64,000 nt of DNA from Escherichia phage rV5_ev158: sequence record LR694611; one strand, 5' to 3'. Shown here piece after piece: positions 2,502 to 60,099 of this stretch. A program made the translations under genes and the position numbers. Within the stretch, counting starts at the first letter, position 1, and every line of letters starts with the position of its first letter. The notes under the pieces are model-generated. The model was not told where the DNA came from, did not search any database, and saw only the letters and a program-made list of their open reading frames with translations.

Positions 2502-3437
2502 ATGACAAATGAGGAACGTATGATGAAGTATTTTAATGCAGACGACCTGGTTGACAAAGGTCTTGTAACCAGCAGATATTACCCAGATCTTGGGTTAAAG
2601 ATCTATAAATATGCCAGAAAAGTATTCTACAACAACTTATGGCATTTGTCTCCTCGATTACTGGAGTGCCGAGGCATTGTTGTCGGTAATGAAGGAAATG
2701 TTGTGGCATGGCCCTTCACAAAAGTGTTTAACTTGGGAGAAAACTCCACCAACCTGCCTGACAATAAGCTTGTGACGGCGGTAGAGAAAAAGAACGGATT
2801 CCTTGGTGTGGTGTCATCTCATAAAGGTGAACTATTGTTCTCAACAACCGGGTCTCTTGATTCCCCATATTGTAACCTTGCAAAGGAAACCATCCAGGAG
2901 CAATGCGGTAATTTAGATCTTATCAAGAAGGTTATGGGCAATGAAAACATGACATTCATGTTTGAAATTTGTCACCCTTCAGATCCGCATATTGTTCAGG
3001 AAGATCATGGCGCATATTTGATAGGTTGCAGATATAATGATTCTGGAATAATGCTACCAGAAGCCGCTTTAGATGGGATTGCCAAATACCTTGGTGCAAA
3101 ACGTCCTCACACTGTGCGTGAAATTCCGTTCAGCTATGCAAAAGAGTTAGCTGCAGAAACAAGAGGTGAAGGATATATGATTCGTAAGCCTTACTACCCT
3201 TATGATCTGCAGTTGAAGATCAAGTCTCCATACTATCTGGCACGAAAGGCCGTAATGAGGGGTAAAGCTTGGAAGATTTGGGATGATGATATCTTTAAAC
3301 GTGTTGACGAAGAGTTTTACGGCATGGTAAACTTCATTCGTAACAACTACACAGAGGATGTATGGAACTGCCTCCTGGAGCAGGAACGCCGTGAGATACT
3401 TGACTGCTATTTCCACAACGAGGACTATATGCAATGA
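2502..3437 (+). CDS. ATP-dependent RNA ligase-like nucleotidyltransferase
   Basis: ligase motifs I KKNGF (KxNG, no Arg), IV EGYMIRK, V LKIK; start may be the ATG ~18 nt downstream (MMKYF) with GAGGA RBS. Confidence 0.6.
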   Translation: MTNEERMMKYFNADDLVDKGLVTSRYYPDLGLKIYKYARKVFYNNLWHLSPRLLECRGIVVGNEGNVVAWPFTKVFNLGENSTNLPDNKLVTAVEKKNGFLGVVSSHKGELLFSTTGSLDSPYCNLAKETIQEQCGNLDLIKKVMGNENMTFMFEICHPSDPHIVQEDHGAYLIGCRYNDSGIMLPEAALDGIAKYLGAKRPHTVREIPFSYAKELAAETRGEGYMIRKPYYPYDLQLKIKSPYYLARKAVMRGKAWKIWDDDIFKRVDEEFYGMVNFIRNNYTEDVWNCLLEQERREILDCYFHNEDYMQ

Positions 3438-3784
3438 AGAAGTTGATTGTGTGGCTGGATGACTTGAGAGATCCGTCAAATTACGGGCTCCAAGACGCTG
3501 TTTGGCTAAAGAATTCCTCCGAGTTTATAGATTTTATTAACGATAATAGAAAGCTCTACAGACGCGTTTCTGAGTGGCACATGGACAACGACCTTGGAGA
3601 GTTGTTCGAAGGGTACGATTGCCTATCTATGTTGGAGGAAAAATTTGTATTTGGTAAGCCCCCTGTAGTTGACAACGTGAAGATTTTCGTGCATACTTCT
3701 AACCCATCAGCGGCTCGTAAATTCATGCTTGCAGCTGACTCGTTTAAAAAGTTTGGAATAGAGATTAAACAAAACATCTACTGA
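3434..3784 (+). CDS. hypothetical protein
   Basis: ATGA overlap with upstream gene; co-directional packed ORF. Confidence 0.5.
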   Translation: MKKLIVWLDDLRDPSNYGLQDAVWLKNSSEFIDFINDNRKLYRRVSEWHMDNDLGELFEGYDCLSMLEEKFVFGKPPVVDNVKIFVHTSNPSAARKFMLAADSFKKFGIEIKQNIY

Positions 3785-3792
3785 GGACACTT

Positions 3793-4554
3793 ATGCGACG
3801 ACTGATTATTATCTCCGGTGCTGGTTTGAGCGCTGAATCTGGTATTCCCACTTTCCGATCTGGTAGCACTGCAATGTGGGAGAATTTCAGCATCGATGAG
3901 GTGTGCAACATCCACACCTTTGCCAAGAACTACTACAAGGTGCATGACTTTTACAATGCACGTCGTGTAGCTCTAGGCGGTGTTGAGCCTAACCTTGCAC
4001 ATCTTCGGATCGCTGAGTGGTATTCCCGCTGGTCTGGTCGTGTGATCAACCTTACCACCAATGTAGATGATTTGCTGGAGCGTGCTGGTGTAAAACATGA
4101 AGATATTTTACATGTTCACGGGTATTTGCCAGAAATAGTCTATGAGGACGATGAAGGAAGTGACGTCATTAAGGACATTGGATACTCTGAGGTAGATGCA
4201 GGAAAGTATACCTGGGTTAAACCTAATGTGGTGTTCTTCGGAGAAGTAGCTCCGAAGTATACAGACATGTATGACCTGTTGACTTCTCTTACAAGCAATG
4301 ATATGGTTATCCTTGTAGGGTGTTCCAACACAGTTATCAATTTTAACTGGGAGCTATTCCCTGCCTGCAATAAGGGCACCAAACTGCTGATCGTTAACAA
4401 ATACGACTCACAGCATCTAGAGGAGAATGGCATTTCACGTAGTGATATTTACCAGTACGAGGATCGCGGCATCCCGGTTTGGTTTAACGGGGCGGTTGAC
4501 GCTTTCTCTGATAAAACATTCATTGAGACCGTAGAAAACTTTATGGAACTTTAA
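3793..4554 (+). CDS. Sir2-family (sirtuin-like) NAD-dependent enzyme
   Basis: GAGLSAESGIPTFR, TTNVDDLLERAG, HVHG and PNVVFFGE motifs typical of sirtuins; no zinc CxxC pair seen. Confidence 0.8.
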   Translation: MRRLIIISGAGLSAESGIPTFRSGSTAMWENFSIDEVCNIHTFAKNYYKVHDFYNARRVALGGVEPNLAHLRIAEWYSRWSGRVINLTTNVDDLLERAGVKHEDILHVHGYLPEIVYEDDEGSDVIKDIGYSEVDAGKYTWVKPNVVFFGEVAPKYTDMYDLLTSLTSNDMVILVGCSNTVINFNWELFPACNKGTKLLIVNKYDSQHLEENGISRSDIYQYEDRGIPVWFNGAVDAFSDKTFIETVENFMEL

Positions 4555-56153: not shown

Positions 56154-56693
56154 TCAACACTTTTTGTACTCCACCACGACAATATCTATGTCGAAAGTGG
56201 CAAGTTTAATAACGTCCTCTACGTGTTCCCACTTCAAACCGCCTATGCCGCACCCGATCTTAGGGATGTAGAATGGTAAAGTCGATCCGCTAAATACTTC
56301 ATTGACTAGCTCAAAGCCTTTCAGGATTGAGAAATACTCAGCATTAGGTCCTGGGTAGAACTGGGTATATAGATTGATTCCGTAGACAATACCTATCGGA
56401 GATAAGTGCTCCCATCGGGAGAACGCACCCAGTTTACTTAGGCAACCGTATCTAGTCTCTTTGTCGGCTGACAGTGCTTGAGGAAACTCACGGGCAATCT
56501 GTTTTGCTATACCCTTGCCCATTGTGTGGAAGCAGTTACAACCGTGGATCAGGTGACCAGCACCGCTCTTAAAAAGGGAGATTAAATCTCCCTCTACAGT
56601 ATCAATAATCACGGTAGGCCAGCTCCTCTTCCGCAATTTCAAAAAACTCAGTCCAGCACTGTGGCATATTGGAGTTACCGAAGTGGCTTTCAT
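56154..56693 (-). CDS. macro domain protein, TARG1/DarG-like ADP-ribosyl hydrolase (putative)
   Basis: GDLISLFKSGAGHLIHGCNCFHTMGKGIA and IPKIGCGIGGLKWEHV align with human TARG1 ([43 protein letters not shown]) as recalled; start may be the GTG at ~56612. Confidence 0.75.
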   Translation of the reverse strand: MKATSVTPICHSAGLSFLKLRKRSWPTVIIDTVEGDLISLFKSGAGHLIHGCNCFHTMGKGIAKQIAREFPQALSADKETRYGCLSKLGAFSRWEHLSPIGIVYGINLYTQFYPGPNAEYFSILKGFELVNEVFSGSTLPFYIPKIGCGIGGLKWEHVEDVIKLATFDIDIVVVEYKKC

Positions 56694-57806: not shown

Positions 57807-57867
57807 TTTCAGATCTCCTTATACAAAAATGCCCCACCCTTTCGGGCAGGGCTATGTTAACTAGGTG

Positions 57868-58491
57868 CTAAAAGTATTCGTAGAGGTATCCATCGGGGGC
57901 TGGAATTTTTTCATGAATGTAGTAATCAACACATATTCCGGTTTCTCTTCTACAAGAATTGTGGGATACCCATTCTTTAAGAACGTTTCCATTCATGTCC
58001 AGCCTTCTTACATTTTTACACCGTCTACCGCTGGTGCTTCTATGCAACAGAATATCCTCCGTCTGCTTGTCTTTATTTTCTCCCCAGGTAGTTAAACGGA
58101 TATTATCAAAAGAGTACCCTTTGAAATCATCTATCCTGTCACAAGAAGGCTTTTTCCTTTTGTCGTATCCGCTGGCTACCCACTGATCATACAACTCTTT
58201 GTAACCGTTCAGGTATAGCCACTCCTTAAACTCTTTTTTGGTGTAAGTCGGAGGAGGGTGGCCTCTTTGCTTGCTGTTGCACTTTTGAGCCTTGTACAGC
58301 ACGCGTATTACACCTTTTTCTGAAGAGTCGTGGGAAAATTGGTCAGCCTCCTTGCTGGCCTTCTTGCAACACTCTTTGCACTTATTAAGATGACCGTCAG
58401 ACATCTTTGGGTGTTTGTAGAACTCGGAGAGGTTTTTCACCTCTCCGCACTTTATGCACCTCTTACAATGCGTGGATTCTGCTTTTGCCAT
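57868..58491 (-). CDS. putative homing endonuclease-like protein (N-terminal zinc ribbon)
   Basis: CKRCIKCGEVKNLSEFYKH...CKEC N-terminus typical of phage mobile endonuclease-associated zinc ribbons; catalytic motif not securely identified. Confidence 0.4.
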   Translation of the reverse strand: MAKAESTHCKRCIKCGEVKNLSEFYKHPKMSDGHLNKCKECCKKASKEADQFSHDSSEKGVIRVLYKAQKCNSKQRGHPPPTYTKKEFKEWLYLNGYKELYDQWVASGYDKRKKPSCDRIDDFKGYSFDNIRLTTWGENKDKQTEDILLHRSTSGRRCKNVRRLDMNGNVLKEWVSHNSCRRETGICVDYYIHEKIPAPDGYLYEYF

Positions 58492-59734
58492 ATTGCAAAC
58501 CTACCGGAGCGAAAGGTATGTCATCACAGAAGTCATACTGCGCCGGATTCTGACCCATCGGGTCATCTTCCTCATCATTTACAGGAGGAGCGTCTACAGT
58601 GTTTTGCTGTGGAGCTGCTTCCTGTTTGGCAGCCTGAGGTTCTTGATGGTCAGTTGACCCAGCACCGTTCTTGATCCAATCGTACAACGGCTCAGCCAGA
58701 TTAGTCAAGACATCTTTTGCTTCTGCAGTAATTGCCGCTGCAAAATCATCAACTTTCGTTTTCTTGTCAATACGGCGACAAGCGTTCAACACCGCATTAC
58801 CGACACTGGCACCTACTTCATCTTCAGTTCGGTTGGTGGCTTGAGCATACTCTTTCTTAAGCTCAATGGTGACTACGTGCAGTGTTTTAGCCACACCTAG
58901 TGGGTCGTCTACCTTAAACCCGCGATCCAGGATGATTTGCAACGCATTGATGCTATGTCCCGTCTCCACACCAATAGGGTCGTAAGAGGATTTACGCTTG
59001 CCACCAGAGCCTTGAGTGCCGTTCTCTGCCTTAGGTGGATAGGCTTTGAAACCGCTGATAATGTTTCCGGTGTCTTTGTCAACAATGGCTGCAACACGAC
59101 CACCTACCACCAGGTCTTTAAGCTGCTCATCAGTAACAACCATGGCACCTTCGCCAATCTTGTGGTCATTAACAGTAACCACGTTGCCAACAATCTGAGT
59201 CACATCGCCATAGATGCGTAAAACGTCCTGATTGGCATTCTGCTGAGGTTTCTGCTTCTGGCCTTGTGATTGTGCACCTTGTTGCTGTTTTTGCTGCTGA
59301 GTCGCTGCTGGAGCCTCTCCTGCACCCAGCTTGACCATCTTAGCCAGTGAGCCTTTGTAATAGGTCTTACCGTTATGCTCGTTTGCCTTCAAAGGGATAT
59401 TTACGATCCATCCCGGCGTTACGGTTTCCCACTTGTCATCAATTTTAACAGAGACAGAGTCTTGATGACCAGGTTTAAGCAGCTTATCACCCATACTGAT
59501 CCAAACTTCTTCACCACCTTGAAGCAGGTTATCAGAGGAATCCAGTTCAGAAATCAGTAAAGAGATGGTGTGGCTGGATTCAATTTTCTTACCTTGCCAC
59601 ACAGTGGTTTTAATACCTGTTGTAGGATCAGCACCTTTGATAGGTTTGATGCTGACACGTTTAATCATGCCGTGAGCCAGTAAAACAGTTTCACGCGGAT
59701 TCATCGGGTTAGCGAATTGTTGAATAACGCTCAT
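58463..59734 (-). CDS. putative ssDNA-binding protein-like
   Basis: Gln-rich linker and acidic DFCDDIPF near the C-terminus resembling the SSB DDDIPF tip, but followed by 15 more residues. Confidence 0.4.
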   Translation of the reverse strand: MSVIQQFANPMNPRETVLLAHGMIKRVSIKPIKGADPTTGIKTTVWQGKKIESSHTISLLISELDSSDNLLQGGEEVWISMGDKLLKPGHQDSVSVKIDDKWETVTPGWIVNIPLKANEHNGKTYYKGSLAKMVKLGAGEAPAATQQQKQQQGAQSQGQKQKPQQNANQDVLRIYGDVTQIVGNVVTVNDHKIGEGAMVVTDEQLKDLVVGGRVAAIVDKDTGNIISGFKAYPPKAENGTQGSGGKRKSSYDPIGVETGHSINALQIILDRGFKVDDPLGVAKTLHVVTIELKKEYAQATNRTEDEVGASVGNAVLNACRRIDKKTKVDDFAAAITAEAKDVLTNLAEPLYDWIKNGAGSTDHQEPQAAKQEAAPQQNTVDAPPVNDEEDDPMGQNPAQYDFCDDIPFAPVGLQYGKSRIHAL

Positions 59735-60099
59735 TATTTGTCTCCTTGTTCTTCGTTAGTGTTCGCCGTGTGTGCAAACCCTGCCTGAATTAATTTGTCC
59801 TGAACTTGAGCCAACAGGCCCATTGCAAAACTTGTGGTCCCAGAGAGAGCCATCAGCATATCTCGTTGTTGAGCTACCCAACCTAAGGCATAGTCCAAAC
59901 GACGATATTTTTCTTCTTCGCGCAGAGCCTGAAATAATTGTTCAGCCTCCGGTTGTTGTGTGAGCTCCTGAAGTCTTCCCATGAAAGAAGAAAGCACTAG
60001 CAAAAGAGACACTTGATCTTTACTTAACCCTAAGAAAAATTCTTGAGGTTGTTCTTGCTCGTTCATCGCAACCGACGCTTGATCGTTCATTTGTTCCAT
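59734..60099 (-). CDS. hypothetical protein
   Basis: ATGA-type coupling to downstream gene. Confidence 0.5.
   Translation of the reverse strand: MEQMNDQASVAMNEQEQPQEFFLGLSKDQVSLLLVLSSFMGRLQELTQQPEAEQLFQALREEEKYRRLDYALGWVAQQRDMLMALSGTTSFAMGLLAQVQDKLIQAGFAHTANTNEEQGDK

What the first reader, a model, noticed from the sequence alone, without database searches (positions are those of the whole stretch)
57868..59734. SSB-like gene with an internalised DDIPF motif next to a homing-endonuclease-like gene
The 423-aa ORF has a Gln-rich linker and the sequence DFCDDIPF, closely resembling the SSB C-terminal tip, yet the ORF continues 15 residues past it before the stop. The stop overlaps the start of an endonuclease-like gene. 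A free C-terminal Phe is normally required for SSB partner binding, so this could reflect 3'-end remodelling by a mobile endonuclease insertion, or an assembly frameshift.
Basis: partly seen in the sequence, partly recalled or inferred. Interest (0 to 1): 0.45.

Follow-up and report, generated by a model that had tools for sequence, protein, structure and literature searches.

The report
Capped phage SSB tail beside homing endonuclease
A phage SSB-like protein carries a conserved 15-residue cap after the normally terminal SSB partner-binding tip; the cap also occurs on unrelated phage SSBs, so it is neither read-through junk nor a sequencing error, and a mobile endonuclease specialised for SSB gene ends sits next to it.

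Summary
The window is Escherichia phage rV5_ev168. ORF 58463..59734(-) encodes 423 aa ending DFCDDIPF+APVGLQYGKSRIHAL, and its last 29 nt overlap the start of a 207-aa endonuclease ORF (57868..58491).

The neighbour is a free-standing HNH homing endonuclease resembling PacI and I-HmuI. It is optional among 116 near-identical phage records. Its nearest relatives elsewhere all sit directly after SSB tips, including those of canonical SSBs.

Assembly error is excluded, because 31 records share the junction. The 15 residues are not accidental read-through. They form a conserved motif (AP-x-GLQY plus 7-9 mostly hydrophobic residues) found on rV5-like, canonical and other phage SSBs, mostly with no endonuclease nearby and with free synonymous codon change.

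One extra glycine on E. coli SSB already abolishes chi binding, so the cap should mask or re-target the tip. Its actual function is unknown, and I found no description of the motif.

The parts
58463..59734 (-). SSB-like gene, rV5-type 'capped' allele (423 aa); ortholog of Bas52_0087
   Evidence: ORF. PHROG 4477 at E=5e-173, with the profile ending at residue 408. 404/408 identical to Bas52_0087.
59321..59734 (-). N-terminal OB-like beta domain (residues 1-138)
59231..59311 (-). Gln-rich disordered linker (residues ~142-168)
   Evidence: pLDDT below 50; composition read from the sequence.
59039..59224 (-). Second small beta domain (residues 171-232); absent from phi92-like homologues
   Evidence: The preprint calls it OB-fold-2.
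58667..58978 (-). Four-helix bundle (residues 253-356); holds D252 and Y351, the DRT10 escape positions in Bas52
   Evidence: pLDDT above 90. D252 is nearly invariant. Escape mutants from the preprint.
58535..58651 (-). Disordered Pro/Glu/Gln-rich tail (residues ~362-400)
   Evidence: pLDDT about 40.
58511..58534 (-). SSB-Ct-like tip DFCDDIPF (residues 401-408), here internal and with a non-consensus Cys
   Evidence: Relatives without the endonuclease have (A/S/T)FDDDIPF-stop. E. coli SSB tip shown.
58463..58510 (-). Cap APVGLQYGKSRIHAL plus its stop codon: a conserved C-terminal module after the tip
   Evidence: Found in distant homologues and in other SSB families. Synonymous turnover.
57868..58491 (-). 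Free-standing HNH homing endonuclease gene (207 aa), starting inside the cap codons
   Evidence: phrog_1035 at E=9e-41. Profile hits I-HmuI 1u3e at E=2.6e-4 and PacI at E=0.015. AlphaFold2 pLDDT 91, with PacI the top Foldseek hit. Presence/absence polymorphism.
58369..58467 (-). N-terminal Zn ribbon of the endonuclease (C9/C12/C15...C38/C41), 'long' type with FYKHPKMSDGHLNKCKEC
   Evidence: Invariant Cys residues. The same ribbon lies next to capped SSB genes in 10 distinct contexts.
58054..58182 (-). Beta-beta-alpha-metal nuclease core (residues 104-146; PSCDRIDDFKGYSFDNIRLTTWGEN)
   Evidence: R119, Y126 and N139 are invariant and D118 nearly so. Aligns to the I-HmuI and PacI HNH motifs.
57871..58014 (-). 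C-terminal DNA-binding module of the I-HmuI / NUMOD type (residues ~160-207)
   Evidence: Aligns to I-HmuI residues ~120-171. Some homologues carry PF22083 or PF07453.
58499..58505 (-). Shine-Dalgarno-like GGTAGGT for the endonuclease, encoded by cap codons P-V-G, 8 nt before the ATG at 58491
   Evidence: Read from the sequence; functional role is inferred.
57831..57852 (-). Intrinsic terminator that ends the SSB-like/endonuclease transcript
   Evidence: In phages without the endonuclease the same terminator follows the SSB-like stop directly.
58301..58601 (-). About 300-nt mosaic segment (end of tail, tip, cap, Zn ribbon) that differs between the two endonuclease-bearing allele types; flanks are ~97-99% identical
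   Evidence: Mismatch profile and alignment.

Best explanation
Identity of the two genes. The 423-aa ORF is the rV5-type allele of the Vequintavirus SSB-like protein, the ortholog of Bas52_0087. It has two OB-like beta domains, a four-helix bundle and a disordered tail ending in an E. coli-type SSB tip. This allele also carries a conserved 15-residue C-terminal cap (AP-x-GLQY plus about 8 mostly hydrophobic residues). The cap is an old, selected peptide module that recurs after the tip in at least three unrelated phage SSB families. The adjacent ORF is a free-standing HNH homing endonuclease: a PacI-like Zn ribbon and beta-beta-alpha-metal core with an I-HmuI-like DNA-binding tail. It belongs to a clade that lives at the 3' ends of SSB genes.

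How the locus works. The endonuclease lies between the tip or cap and the gene's terminator, so it is co-transcribed with the SSB-like gene. Its ribosome-binding site and start codon lie inside the cap codons, so it is probably translationally coupled. In mixed infections it would cut alleles that lack it near the tip-coding DNA and be copied in with flanking sequence. That would account for the non-consensus tip (DFCDDIPF), the cluster of substitutions next to the junction, and the tight linkage of cap and endonuclease within the genus.

Cap function (inferred, not shown). The cap removes the free carboxylate of the terminal Phe, so it should switch off or re-target the canonical tip-pocket interaction with host SSB-interacting proteins.

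Shown: the anatomy, the homology, the polymorphism, the distribution of the cap and the genomic associations. Inferred: nuclease activity, homing, translational coupling, and what the cap does.
For: SSB-like identity:
- 404/408 identity to Bas52_0087. The preprint reports it as SSB-like, with an FDDDIPF tip, and required for DRT10 triggering.
- Several homologues end in PPMDFDDDIPF, the E. coli SSB ending.

The cap is conserved and selected:
- It is present in homologues 26-40% identical that have no endonuclease downstream.
- 47 IMG/VR loci and 11 bacterial-genome loci encode IPF-AP-x-GLQY. At least 27 of the 47 IMG/VR loci are on canonical SSBs.
- 63 distinct DNA versions use all synonymous codons at the A, P, G, L, Q and Y positions.
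- Within the genus, AGC>AGT is silent in the cap frame but changes the endonuclease frame (A4V).
- Capped canonical SSBs are annotated as SSB in 34 of 5,426 complete E. coli genomes, next to erf.

The endonuclease is a mobile HNH enzyme:
- Three alleles at one site among ~97%-identical genomes: 31 with endonuclease and cap, about 20 with endonuclease and no cap, about 63 with neither.
- A decayed remnant in L011.
- The endonuclease is 74% identical in L017 while the host protein there is only 43% identical.
- Profile and fold hits to I-HmuI and PacI; invariant R119, Y126 and N139 with D118 nearly invariant. PacI uses Asp/Asn for the metal and Tyr as general base (PMC4081073).

Specialisation on SSB 3' ends:
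- All 9 IMG/VR relatives at 46% identity or more sit 15-94 nt after an SSB tip, seven of them on canonical SSBs. Chance expectation is 0.03 per window.
- Ten distinct capped SSB genes have the long Zn ribbon starting -5 to +21 nt from the cap's stop codon.

Signs of co-conversion:
- 16 of 25 upstream mismatches to phage ime lie in the last 190 nt before the junction.
- A ~300-nt mosaic block separates this allele from the slur16 type.

Effect of capping:
- SSB+Gly has no detectable chi affinity and is impaired in vivo (PMC3045619).
Against: - The cap is disordered in the model (pLDDT below 45), so there is no structural hint of what it binds.
- The canonical HNH histidine is Arg in this endonuclease family, so activity is assumed by analogy with PacI only.
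- Cause and effect between cap and endonuclease is unresolved. The cap could be the endonuclease's target or its cargo.
- In Vequintavirus no capped allele lacking the endonuclease was seen apart from the remnant-bearing L011. That fits a hitch-hiking cap as well as it fits my reading.
- Counts of GenBank records include duplicate entries for the same phage.
Confidence: 0.7

Rival explanations
1. One reading: inserting the endonuclease destroyed the SSB stop codon, and the 15 extra residues are a fortuitous translation of endonuclease-cassette DNA, tolerated or mildly harmful.
For: Within the genus the extension occurs only with the rV5-type endonuclease or its remnant. Alleles without the endonuclease end exactly at IPF-stop. 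The endonuclease start lies inside the extension.
Against: The same AP-x-GLQY motif follows the tip in genomes with no endonuclease: Seunavirus and phi92-like homologues and at least 27 canonical SSBs. Its length is fixed at 14-16 residues. Seven positions are nearly invariant despite full synonymous codon turnover. Where the frames overlap, the cap frame is better conserved than the endonuclease frame.
Confidence: 0.05
2. Assembly or sequencing frameshift at the 3' end of the gene.
For: None beyond the unusual ending.
Against: 31 GenBank records share the junction and the intact cap. A 533-member protein cluster has the same ending.
Confidence: 0.01
3. The cap is cargo of the mobile cassette. 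It travels with the long-ribbon endonuclease by co-conversion into SSB genes of any family and persists as a scar after the endonuclease is lost. It has little function of its own, or serves only to place the SSB stop codon at the endonuclease start for translational coupling.
For: The cap-to-ribbon junction is stereotyped in 10 unrelated contexts. In L017 the cap is 13/15 identical and the endonuclease 74% identical to the window, while the host protein is 43% identical. The cap and ribbon sit inside a ~300-nt mosaic block. L011 keeps the cap after the endonuclease decayed.
Against: 43 of 47 capped loci in IMG/VR have no endonuclease, and many end in a terminator or run into unrelated genes. 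Conservation is at the amino-acid level, not the nucleotide level. In E. coli prophages an unrelated gene uses the same start codon inside the cap, which suggests the cap and its overlapping start pre-date the endonuclease.
Confidence: 0.15
4. The cap is a pro-peptide or degron. It is clipped off, or it drives turnover, so that the mature active protein still presents a free ...IPF, and the cap only times or limits SSB activity.
For: The consensus tip is kept strictly in front of the cap, which argues the tip is still used. Caps end in non-polar residues (YAL, NCM, HCI...), reminiscent of C-terminal degradation signals; that comparison rests on my own knowledge, not on a test.
Against: No protease is known that would cut precisely after Phe. 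There is no evidence either way in the data to hand. One-residue caps (IPFN, IPFS) do not look like degrons.
Confidence: 0.12
5. The protein is not the phage's working SSB. It is a decoy that displays a host-like tip to titrate or redirect host SSB-interacting proteins, and the cap tunes the decoy.
For: No sequence similarity to any characterised SSB. The preprint proposes interference with ExoI/SbcB. No other SSB-like ORF appears in this 64-kb window, although the rest of the genome was not examined.
Against: The fold hits are dominated by genuine SSBs. The architecture is OB domains followed by a disordered linker and tip. The rV5 paper lists no other SSB among its replication genes.
Confidence: 0.1

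Closest known systems
Bas52_0087 of Escherichia phage RudolfGeigy (QXV84166.1), the SSB-like trigger of the DRT10/UG17 defence (bioRxiv 10.64898/2026.04.29.721553)
   Same: It is the ortholog, 404/408 identical, with the same two beta domains, four-helix bundle, disordered tail and tip. It occupies the same genomic position.
   Different: Bas52_0087 ends at ...SFDDDIPF and is followed directly by the terminator, with no endonuclease. The window's allele has DFCDDIPF, the 15-residue cap and the endonuclease. All four amino-acid differences lie in the last 41 shared residues. The preprint does not mention capped alleles in the passages I read.
E. coli SSB C-terminal tip (SSB-Ct, ...PPMDFDDDIPF) and its pocket-binding partners chi, ExoI, RecQ, PriA and others
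   Same: The tip sequence is identical or near-identical across the family, and it follows a disordered linker after OB domains.
   Different: Here the Phe is internal. An SSB carrying a single extra Gly has no detectable chi affinity (PMC3045619), so the canonical binding mode should be lost. The OB domains show no sequence similarity to PF00436.
PacI restriction endonuclease and I-HmuI homing endonuclease (HNH / beta-beta-alpha-metal)
   Same: It has an N-terminal CxxC...FY...CxxC Zn ribbon and a D-R-x-D...GY...N core like PacI. The nuclease-to-C-terminal DNA-binding layout aligns to I-HmuI at E=2.6e-4.
   Different: It is free-standing rather than intron-encoded like I-HmuI, and it is not part of a restriction-modification system like PacI. 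The canonical general-base His is Arg. Its target and whether it nicks or cuts both strands are unknown.
T4 SegG, a free-standing GIY-YIG homing endonuclease between genes 32 and 59 that cuts in gene 32, the SSB gene (PMC2988022)
   Same: Both are promoter-less, free-standing endonuclease genes lodged beside the phage SSB gene and co-transcribed with neighbours. Both are expected to drive co-conversion of SSB-gene markers.
   Different: The nuclease family differs (HNH versus GIY-YIG). The position is at the 3' end of the SSB gene, overlapping its last codons. The clade recurs after SSB genes of unrelated families.

Membership tests
Bacterial-type SSB (Pfam PF00436 family with SSB-Ct) | Sequence match to the SSB OB-domain family | tested here: not met
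   No Pfam or NCBIfam hit at E<=0.1-1. No PDB sequence hit. tblastn with the E. coli SSB OB domain finds nothing in the window.
Bacterial-type SSB (Pfam PF00436 family with SSB-Ct) | OB-fold nucleic-acid-binding domain | tested here: met
Bacterial-type SSB (Pfam PF00436 family with SSB-Ct) | Disordered linker followed by an acidic tip ending in a free C-terminal Phe | tested here: not met
   The linker and the DFCDDIPF tip are present, but 15 residues follow the Phe in this allele. The 408-aa alleles of the same gene do meet this feature.
Bacterial-type SSB (Pfam PF00436 family with SSB-Ct) | Sequence-independent ssDNA binding and oligomerisation | not testable with these tools
   No biochemistry exists for any member. 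The preprint infers oligomerisation from a model.
PHROG 4477 / Bas52_0087-like SSB-like proteins of Vequintavirinae and relatives | Full-length profile match and orthologous position | tested here: met
   E=5e-173 over residues 1-408. 99% identity to Bas52_0087 with the same neighbours. 339 representatives in the 50%-identity library.
HNH (beta-beta-alpha-metal) homing endonucleases | Beta-beta-alpha-metal nuclease core | tested here: met
   The family profile hits I-HmuI (1u3e) at E=2.6e-4 and PacI at E=0.015. The model has pLDDT 91, and PacI is the top Foldseek hit with probability 0.97.
HNH (beta-beta-alpha-metal) homing endonucleases | Catalytic His general base plus metal-binding Asp/Asn | tested here: inconclusive
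   The His position is an invariant Arg (R119). Y126 and N139 are invariant and D118 nearly so, which matches PacI's Asp/Asn metal site with Tyr as general base (PMC4081073). Activity was not tested.
HNH (beta-beta-alpha-metal) homing endonucleases | Presence/absence polymorphism at one precise site in otherwise near-identical genomes, beside a conserved gene | tested here: met
   Three alleles with clean junctions among 116 records. A decayed copy exists in L011.
HNH (beta-beta-alpha-metal) homing endonucleases | Site-specific cleavage of the endonuclease-free allele and super-Mendelian inheritance in co-infection | not testable with these tools
   Only indirect signs: substitutions clustered at the junction and non-consensus tips in endonuclease-bearing alleles.
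T4 endonuclease VII (the database label for this ORF) | Membership of the Endonuclease_7 family / Holliday-junction resolvase | tested here: not met
   No Pfam hit of any kind. The best structural and profile relatives are PacI and I-HmuI, not endonuclease VII. The label comes from the PHROG and RAST names.

The most novel reading that the evidence does not exclude
The AP-x-GLQY cap is an undescribed regulatory module of phage SSB tails. By turning the universal free-carboxylate SSB-Ct ligand into an internal motif, it would insulate the phage SSB from host SSB-interacting proteins and from defences that sense SSB (DRT10 with ExoI, Retron-Eco8, Hna and others), or redirect it to a private phage partner such as a recombinase. 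Capped and uncapped alleles would be kept as a balanced polymorphism, shuffled between phages by a homing-endonuclease clade that uses the tip/cap-coding DNA as its landing site.
Probability: 0.35. Interest if true: 0.8.

Novelty: new variant of a known kind. Interest (0 to 1): 0.62.

Why it matters
Work on SSB treats the free C-terminal Phe of the tip as indispensable for recruiting a large set of genome-maintenance proteins. Here that Phe is naturally capped by a conserved peptide on three unrelated SSB scaffolds in phages. Such proteins either use the tip differently or switch it off deliberately.

[quoted passage not shown] The uncapped ortholog of this very protein is the DRT10 trigger.

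The BASEL collection already holds near-isogenic capped phages (DrSchubert, EmilHeitz, MaxBurger) and uncapped ones (Bas52 and others). The question of what the cap does is therefore directly testable.

The endonuclease clade also offers a clean new model of homing at a protein-motif-encoding target shared by unrelated genes.

Tried and rejected
- Pfam, NCBIfam and PDB sequence searches of the 423-aa protein gave nothing.
- tblastn with a 28-aa tip+cap peptide returned no match, probably because of the low-complexity filter. I replaced it with a degenerate DNA pattern scan.
- AlphaFold2 gave no confident conformation or docking for the tip or cap.
- Literature searches for DDIPF with 'phage', and for IGLQY, VGLQY or IPFAP, found nothing relevant.
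- The rV5 genome paper does not discuss this gene.
- The DRT10 preprint and its supplements give no per-phage data that would let capped and uncapped BASEL phages be compared.
- Programmed frameshifting at the tip: I found no convincing slippery site in the sequence, so I dropped the idea.
- An RNA- or DNA-level role for the cap codons: rejected as the main constraint because all synonymous codons are used.
- A clamp-binding or PIP-like motif in the cap: considered from memory, but the consensus does not fit.
- No paralogue of either gene, and no tRNA, lies in the window.
Full report
**What is there.** The window is Escherichia phage rV5_ev168 (LR694610.1, genus Vequintavirus), matched at 100% identity. 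On the minus strand, ORF 58463..59734 encodes 423 aa. It has a Gln-rich stretch at residues ~145-167 and ends ...PAQYDFCDDIPF followed by APVGLQYGKSRIHAL. ORF 57868..58491 encodes 207 aa and starts 29 nt before the first ORF's stop codon. A strong intrinsic terminator at 57831..57852 follows the second ORF.

**This is not an artefact.** 31 GenBank records carry the same tip-cap-endonuclease junction, including the original rV5. The cap reads through intact in every record I inspected. A protein cluster with this ending has 533 member sequences.

**What the 423-aa protein is.**
- It has no Pfam, NCBIfam or PDB sequence match. It belongs to PHROG 4477, annotated 'unknown function', and that profile ends exactly at residue 408.
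- An AlphaFold2 model built on 40 homologues gives these parts: a beta domain at residues 1-138, a disordered Gln linker, a second beta domain at 171-232, a four-helix bundle at 253-356 (pLDDT above 90) and a disordered tail at 362-423.
- The protein is 404/408 identical to Bas52_0087 of phage RudolfGeigy. A 2026 preprint reports that protein as a Phold/AlphaFold-predicted SSB-like protein with two OB folds, a four-helix bundle and an FDDDIPF tip. It is required for triggering the DRT10 reverse-transcriptase defence, with escape mutations D252V and Y351C.
- Several family members end in PPMDFDDDIPF, the C-terminus of E. coli SSB.
- 'SSB-like' is therefore supported by fold, architecture and tip. 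It is not a sequence member of the canonical SSB family, and DNA binding is untested.

**The neighbour is a mobile HNH endonuclease.**
- Among 116 phage records ~97% identical across this region, three alleles occupy the same site:
  - (A) rV5-type: cap plus a 207-aa endonuclease, 31 records.
  - (B) slur16-type: the protein ends ...DDSIPF-TGA, then an 8-nt spacer and a 192-aa endonuclease, about 20 records.
  - (C) no endonuclease: the protein ends ...FDDDIPF-TAA and is followed directly by the same terminator, about 63 records.
- A metagenomic relative (L011) keeps the cap and only a ~65-nt remnant of the endonuclease's 3' end.
- A 34-sequence profile of the endonuclease family hits I-HmuI (1u3e) at E=2.6e-4 and PacI at E=0.015. 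The AlphaFold2 model has pLDDT 91, and PacI is its best Foldseek match.
- Invariant residues are four Zn-ribbon cysteines (C12, C15, C38, C41) and R119, Y126 and N139, with D118 nearly invariant. The canonical His is Arg, as in PacI, which uses Asp/Asn for the metal and Tyr as general base (PMC4081073).
- The database label 'endonuclease VII' is not supported.

**The endonuclease clade is tied to SSB gene ends.**
- Of 80 IMG/VR loci encoding relatives, all 9 that are at least 46% identical lie 15-94 nt after an SSB tip. Seven of these follow canonical SSBs. Chance expectation for such a tip is 0.03 per window.
- Tips in endonuclease-bearing alleles are usually off-consensus: DFCDDIPF, DDSIPF, FEDVPF, YDDVPF, DDQEIPF. 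Alleles without it are mostly DFDDDIPF.
- Against the endonuclease-free phage ime, 16 of 25 upstream mismatches fall in the last 190 nt before the junction. Against slur16, a ~300-nt block (end of tail, tip, cap, Zn ribbon) is mosaic between highly similar flanks.
- These are the expected footprints of homing with co-conversion and target-site immunity. Cleavage and homing themselves remain inferred.
- The closest known analogue is T4 SegG, a free-standing endonuclease beside gene 32 that cuts within it (PMC2988022).

- Homologues only 26-40% identical carry the same AP[VI]GLQY plus 7-9 residues after the tip.
- In PVP-SE1, GAP31 and phi92-like phages the cap is followed by a terminator or unrelated genes, with no endonuclease.
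- A degenerate DNA scan for IPF-AP-x-GLQY found 47 IMG/VR loci and 11 bacterial-genome loci. At least 27 of the 47 IMG/VR loci are canonical SSBs (N-termini like MASRGVNKVILVGNLG...). Others belong to further SSB types. Only 4 of the 47 have the Zn-ribbon gene downstream.
- 63 distinct DNA versions encode 45 distinct caps, and every synonymous codon is used at the conserved A, P, G, L, Q and Y positions. My search pattern fixed the amino acids, so this shows that many synonymous versions exist rather than giving an unbiased rate.
- Within the genus, AGC>AGT is silent in the cap frame but changes the overlapping endonuclease frame.
- Capped canonical SSBs next to erf occur in 34 of 5,426 complete E. 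coli genomes. There an unrelated downstream gene starts at the same ATG inside the cap, and its first eight codons match those of the rV5 endonuclease. This suggests the cap and its embedded start pre-date the endonuclease.
- No PDB chain contains the cap, and the searchable literature does not mention the motif.

**How cap and endonuclease relate.**
- In ten distinct capped SSB genes from different families, a 'long' Zn ribbon (FYKH-x-KM-x-DGHLNKCK-x-C) begins -5 to +21 nt from the cap's stop codon. Two of the five uncapped (or one-residue-capped) tips with a downstream Zn-ribbon gene have a shorter ribbon (slur16-type, L029); L020, L040 and L115 do not.
- In ABPH49 the same ribbon is fused to a classical HNH module.
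- Either the long-ribbon endonucleases target the cap-coding DNA, or cap and ribbon move together as a cassette. The data do not decide between these. I lean towards the cap being the target.

**What the cap probably does (inferred).** A single extra Gly after F177 of E. coli SSB abolishes detectable chi binding and impairs function in vivo (PMC3045619). A 15-residue cap should therefore block the canonical pocket interaction. Yet the consensus tip is strictly kept in front of caps, so tip and cap probably act together. I see three options:
- masking or insulation from host partners and from defences that sense SSB;
- a composite motif for a private partner;
- a removable pro-peptide or degron.
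I favour masking or re-targeting, but at modest confidence.

**Verdict.** The SSB-like identity is already in a 2026 preprint, and the endonuclease is a new member of a known kind. The conserved cap on SSB tips, and its association with an endonuclease clade specific to SSB gene ends, appear to be undescribed, and existing phage collections would allow direct tests.

Noticed in passing
Proteins P0112, P0126, P0132-P0134, P0172; locus L040 around 1898: Some family members end ...DDIPFN or ...DDIPFS. This is a one-residue natural cap, analogous to the experimental SSB+Gly mutant that loses chi binding.
   Followed up: no
L007 (Acinetobacter phage ABPH49) 3516..4157: The gene after a capped SSB-like protein has the same N-terminal Zn ribbon as the rV5 endonuclease, but it is fused to a classical HNH module (...HHDDY...H...H). 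This looks like domain shuffling around a shared ribbon that may recognise the DNA target.
   Followed up: partly
L180 (E. coli STEC308 prophage) 2866..4230; L066 4278..4748: Lambdoid-type prophages in 34 of 5,426 complete E. coli genomes carry erf, then a canonical ssb with the cap GKSRIHALS, then an ORF that starts at the ATG inside the cap (32-nt overlap). That ORF shares its first eight codons, M(A/E)KAESTH, with the rV5 endonuclease.
   Followed up: partly
L113 and L115, upstream of position 2501: Proteins of about 620 aa that do not look like SSBs end in tip-like ...DDDTDVPF or ...NEEEVPF and are followed by endonuclease homologues. Tips, and these endonucleases, may not be confined to SSBs.
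   Followed up: no
GenBank MG0656xx records (e.g. L183, MG065646.1): About 20 'Campylobacter phage' records, marked UNVERIFIED in the one opened, are ~97% identical to E. coli Vequintaviruses across this region. The host labels look doubtful.
   Followed up: no
Alignment A2: P0040-P0043 against P0033/P0034; P0060-P0072: The SSB-like family is strongly mosaic. The N-terminal OB domain is swapped in some members that keep identical middle and C-terminal parts, and phi92-like members lack the second beta domain altogether.
   Followed up: no
window 56154..56693 (-): An ORF annotated in the source record as a T4-like Macro-domain (ADP-ribose-binding) protein lies three genes downstream of the endonuclease.
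   Followed up: no
window 59734..60099 (-): The upstream 121-aa gene (phrog_7310, unknown function) ends in TAATG, overlapping the SSB-like start codon. It is conserved next to the gene in all relatives examined and may be a functional partner.
   Followed up: no
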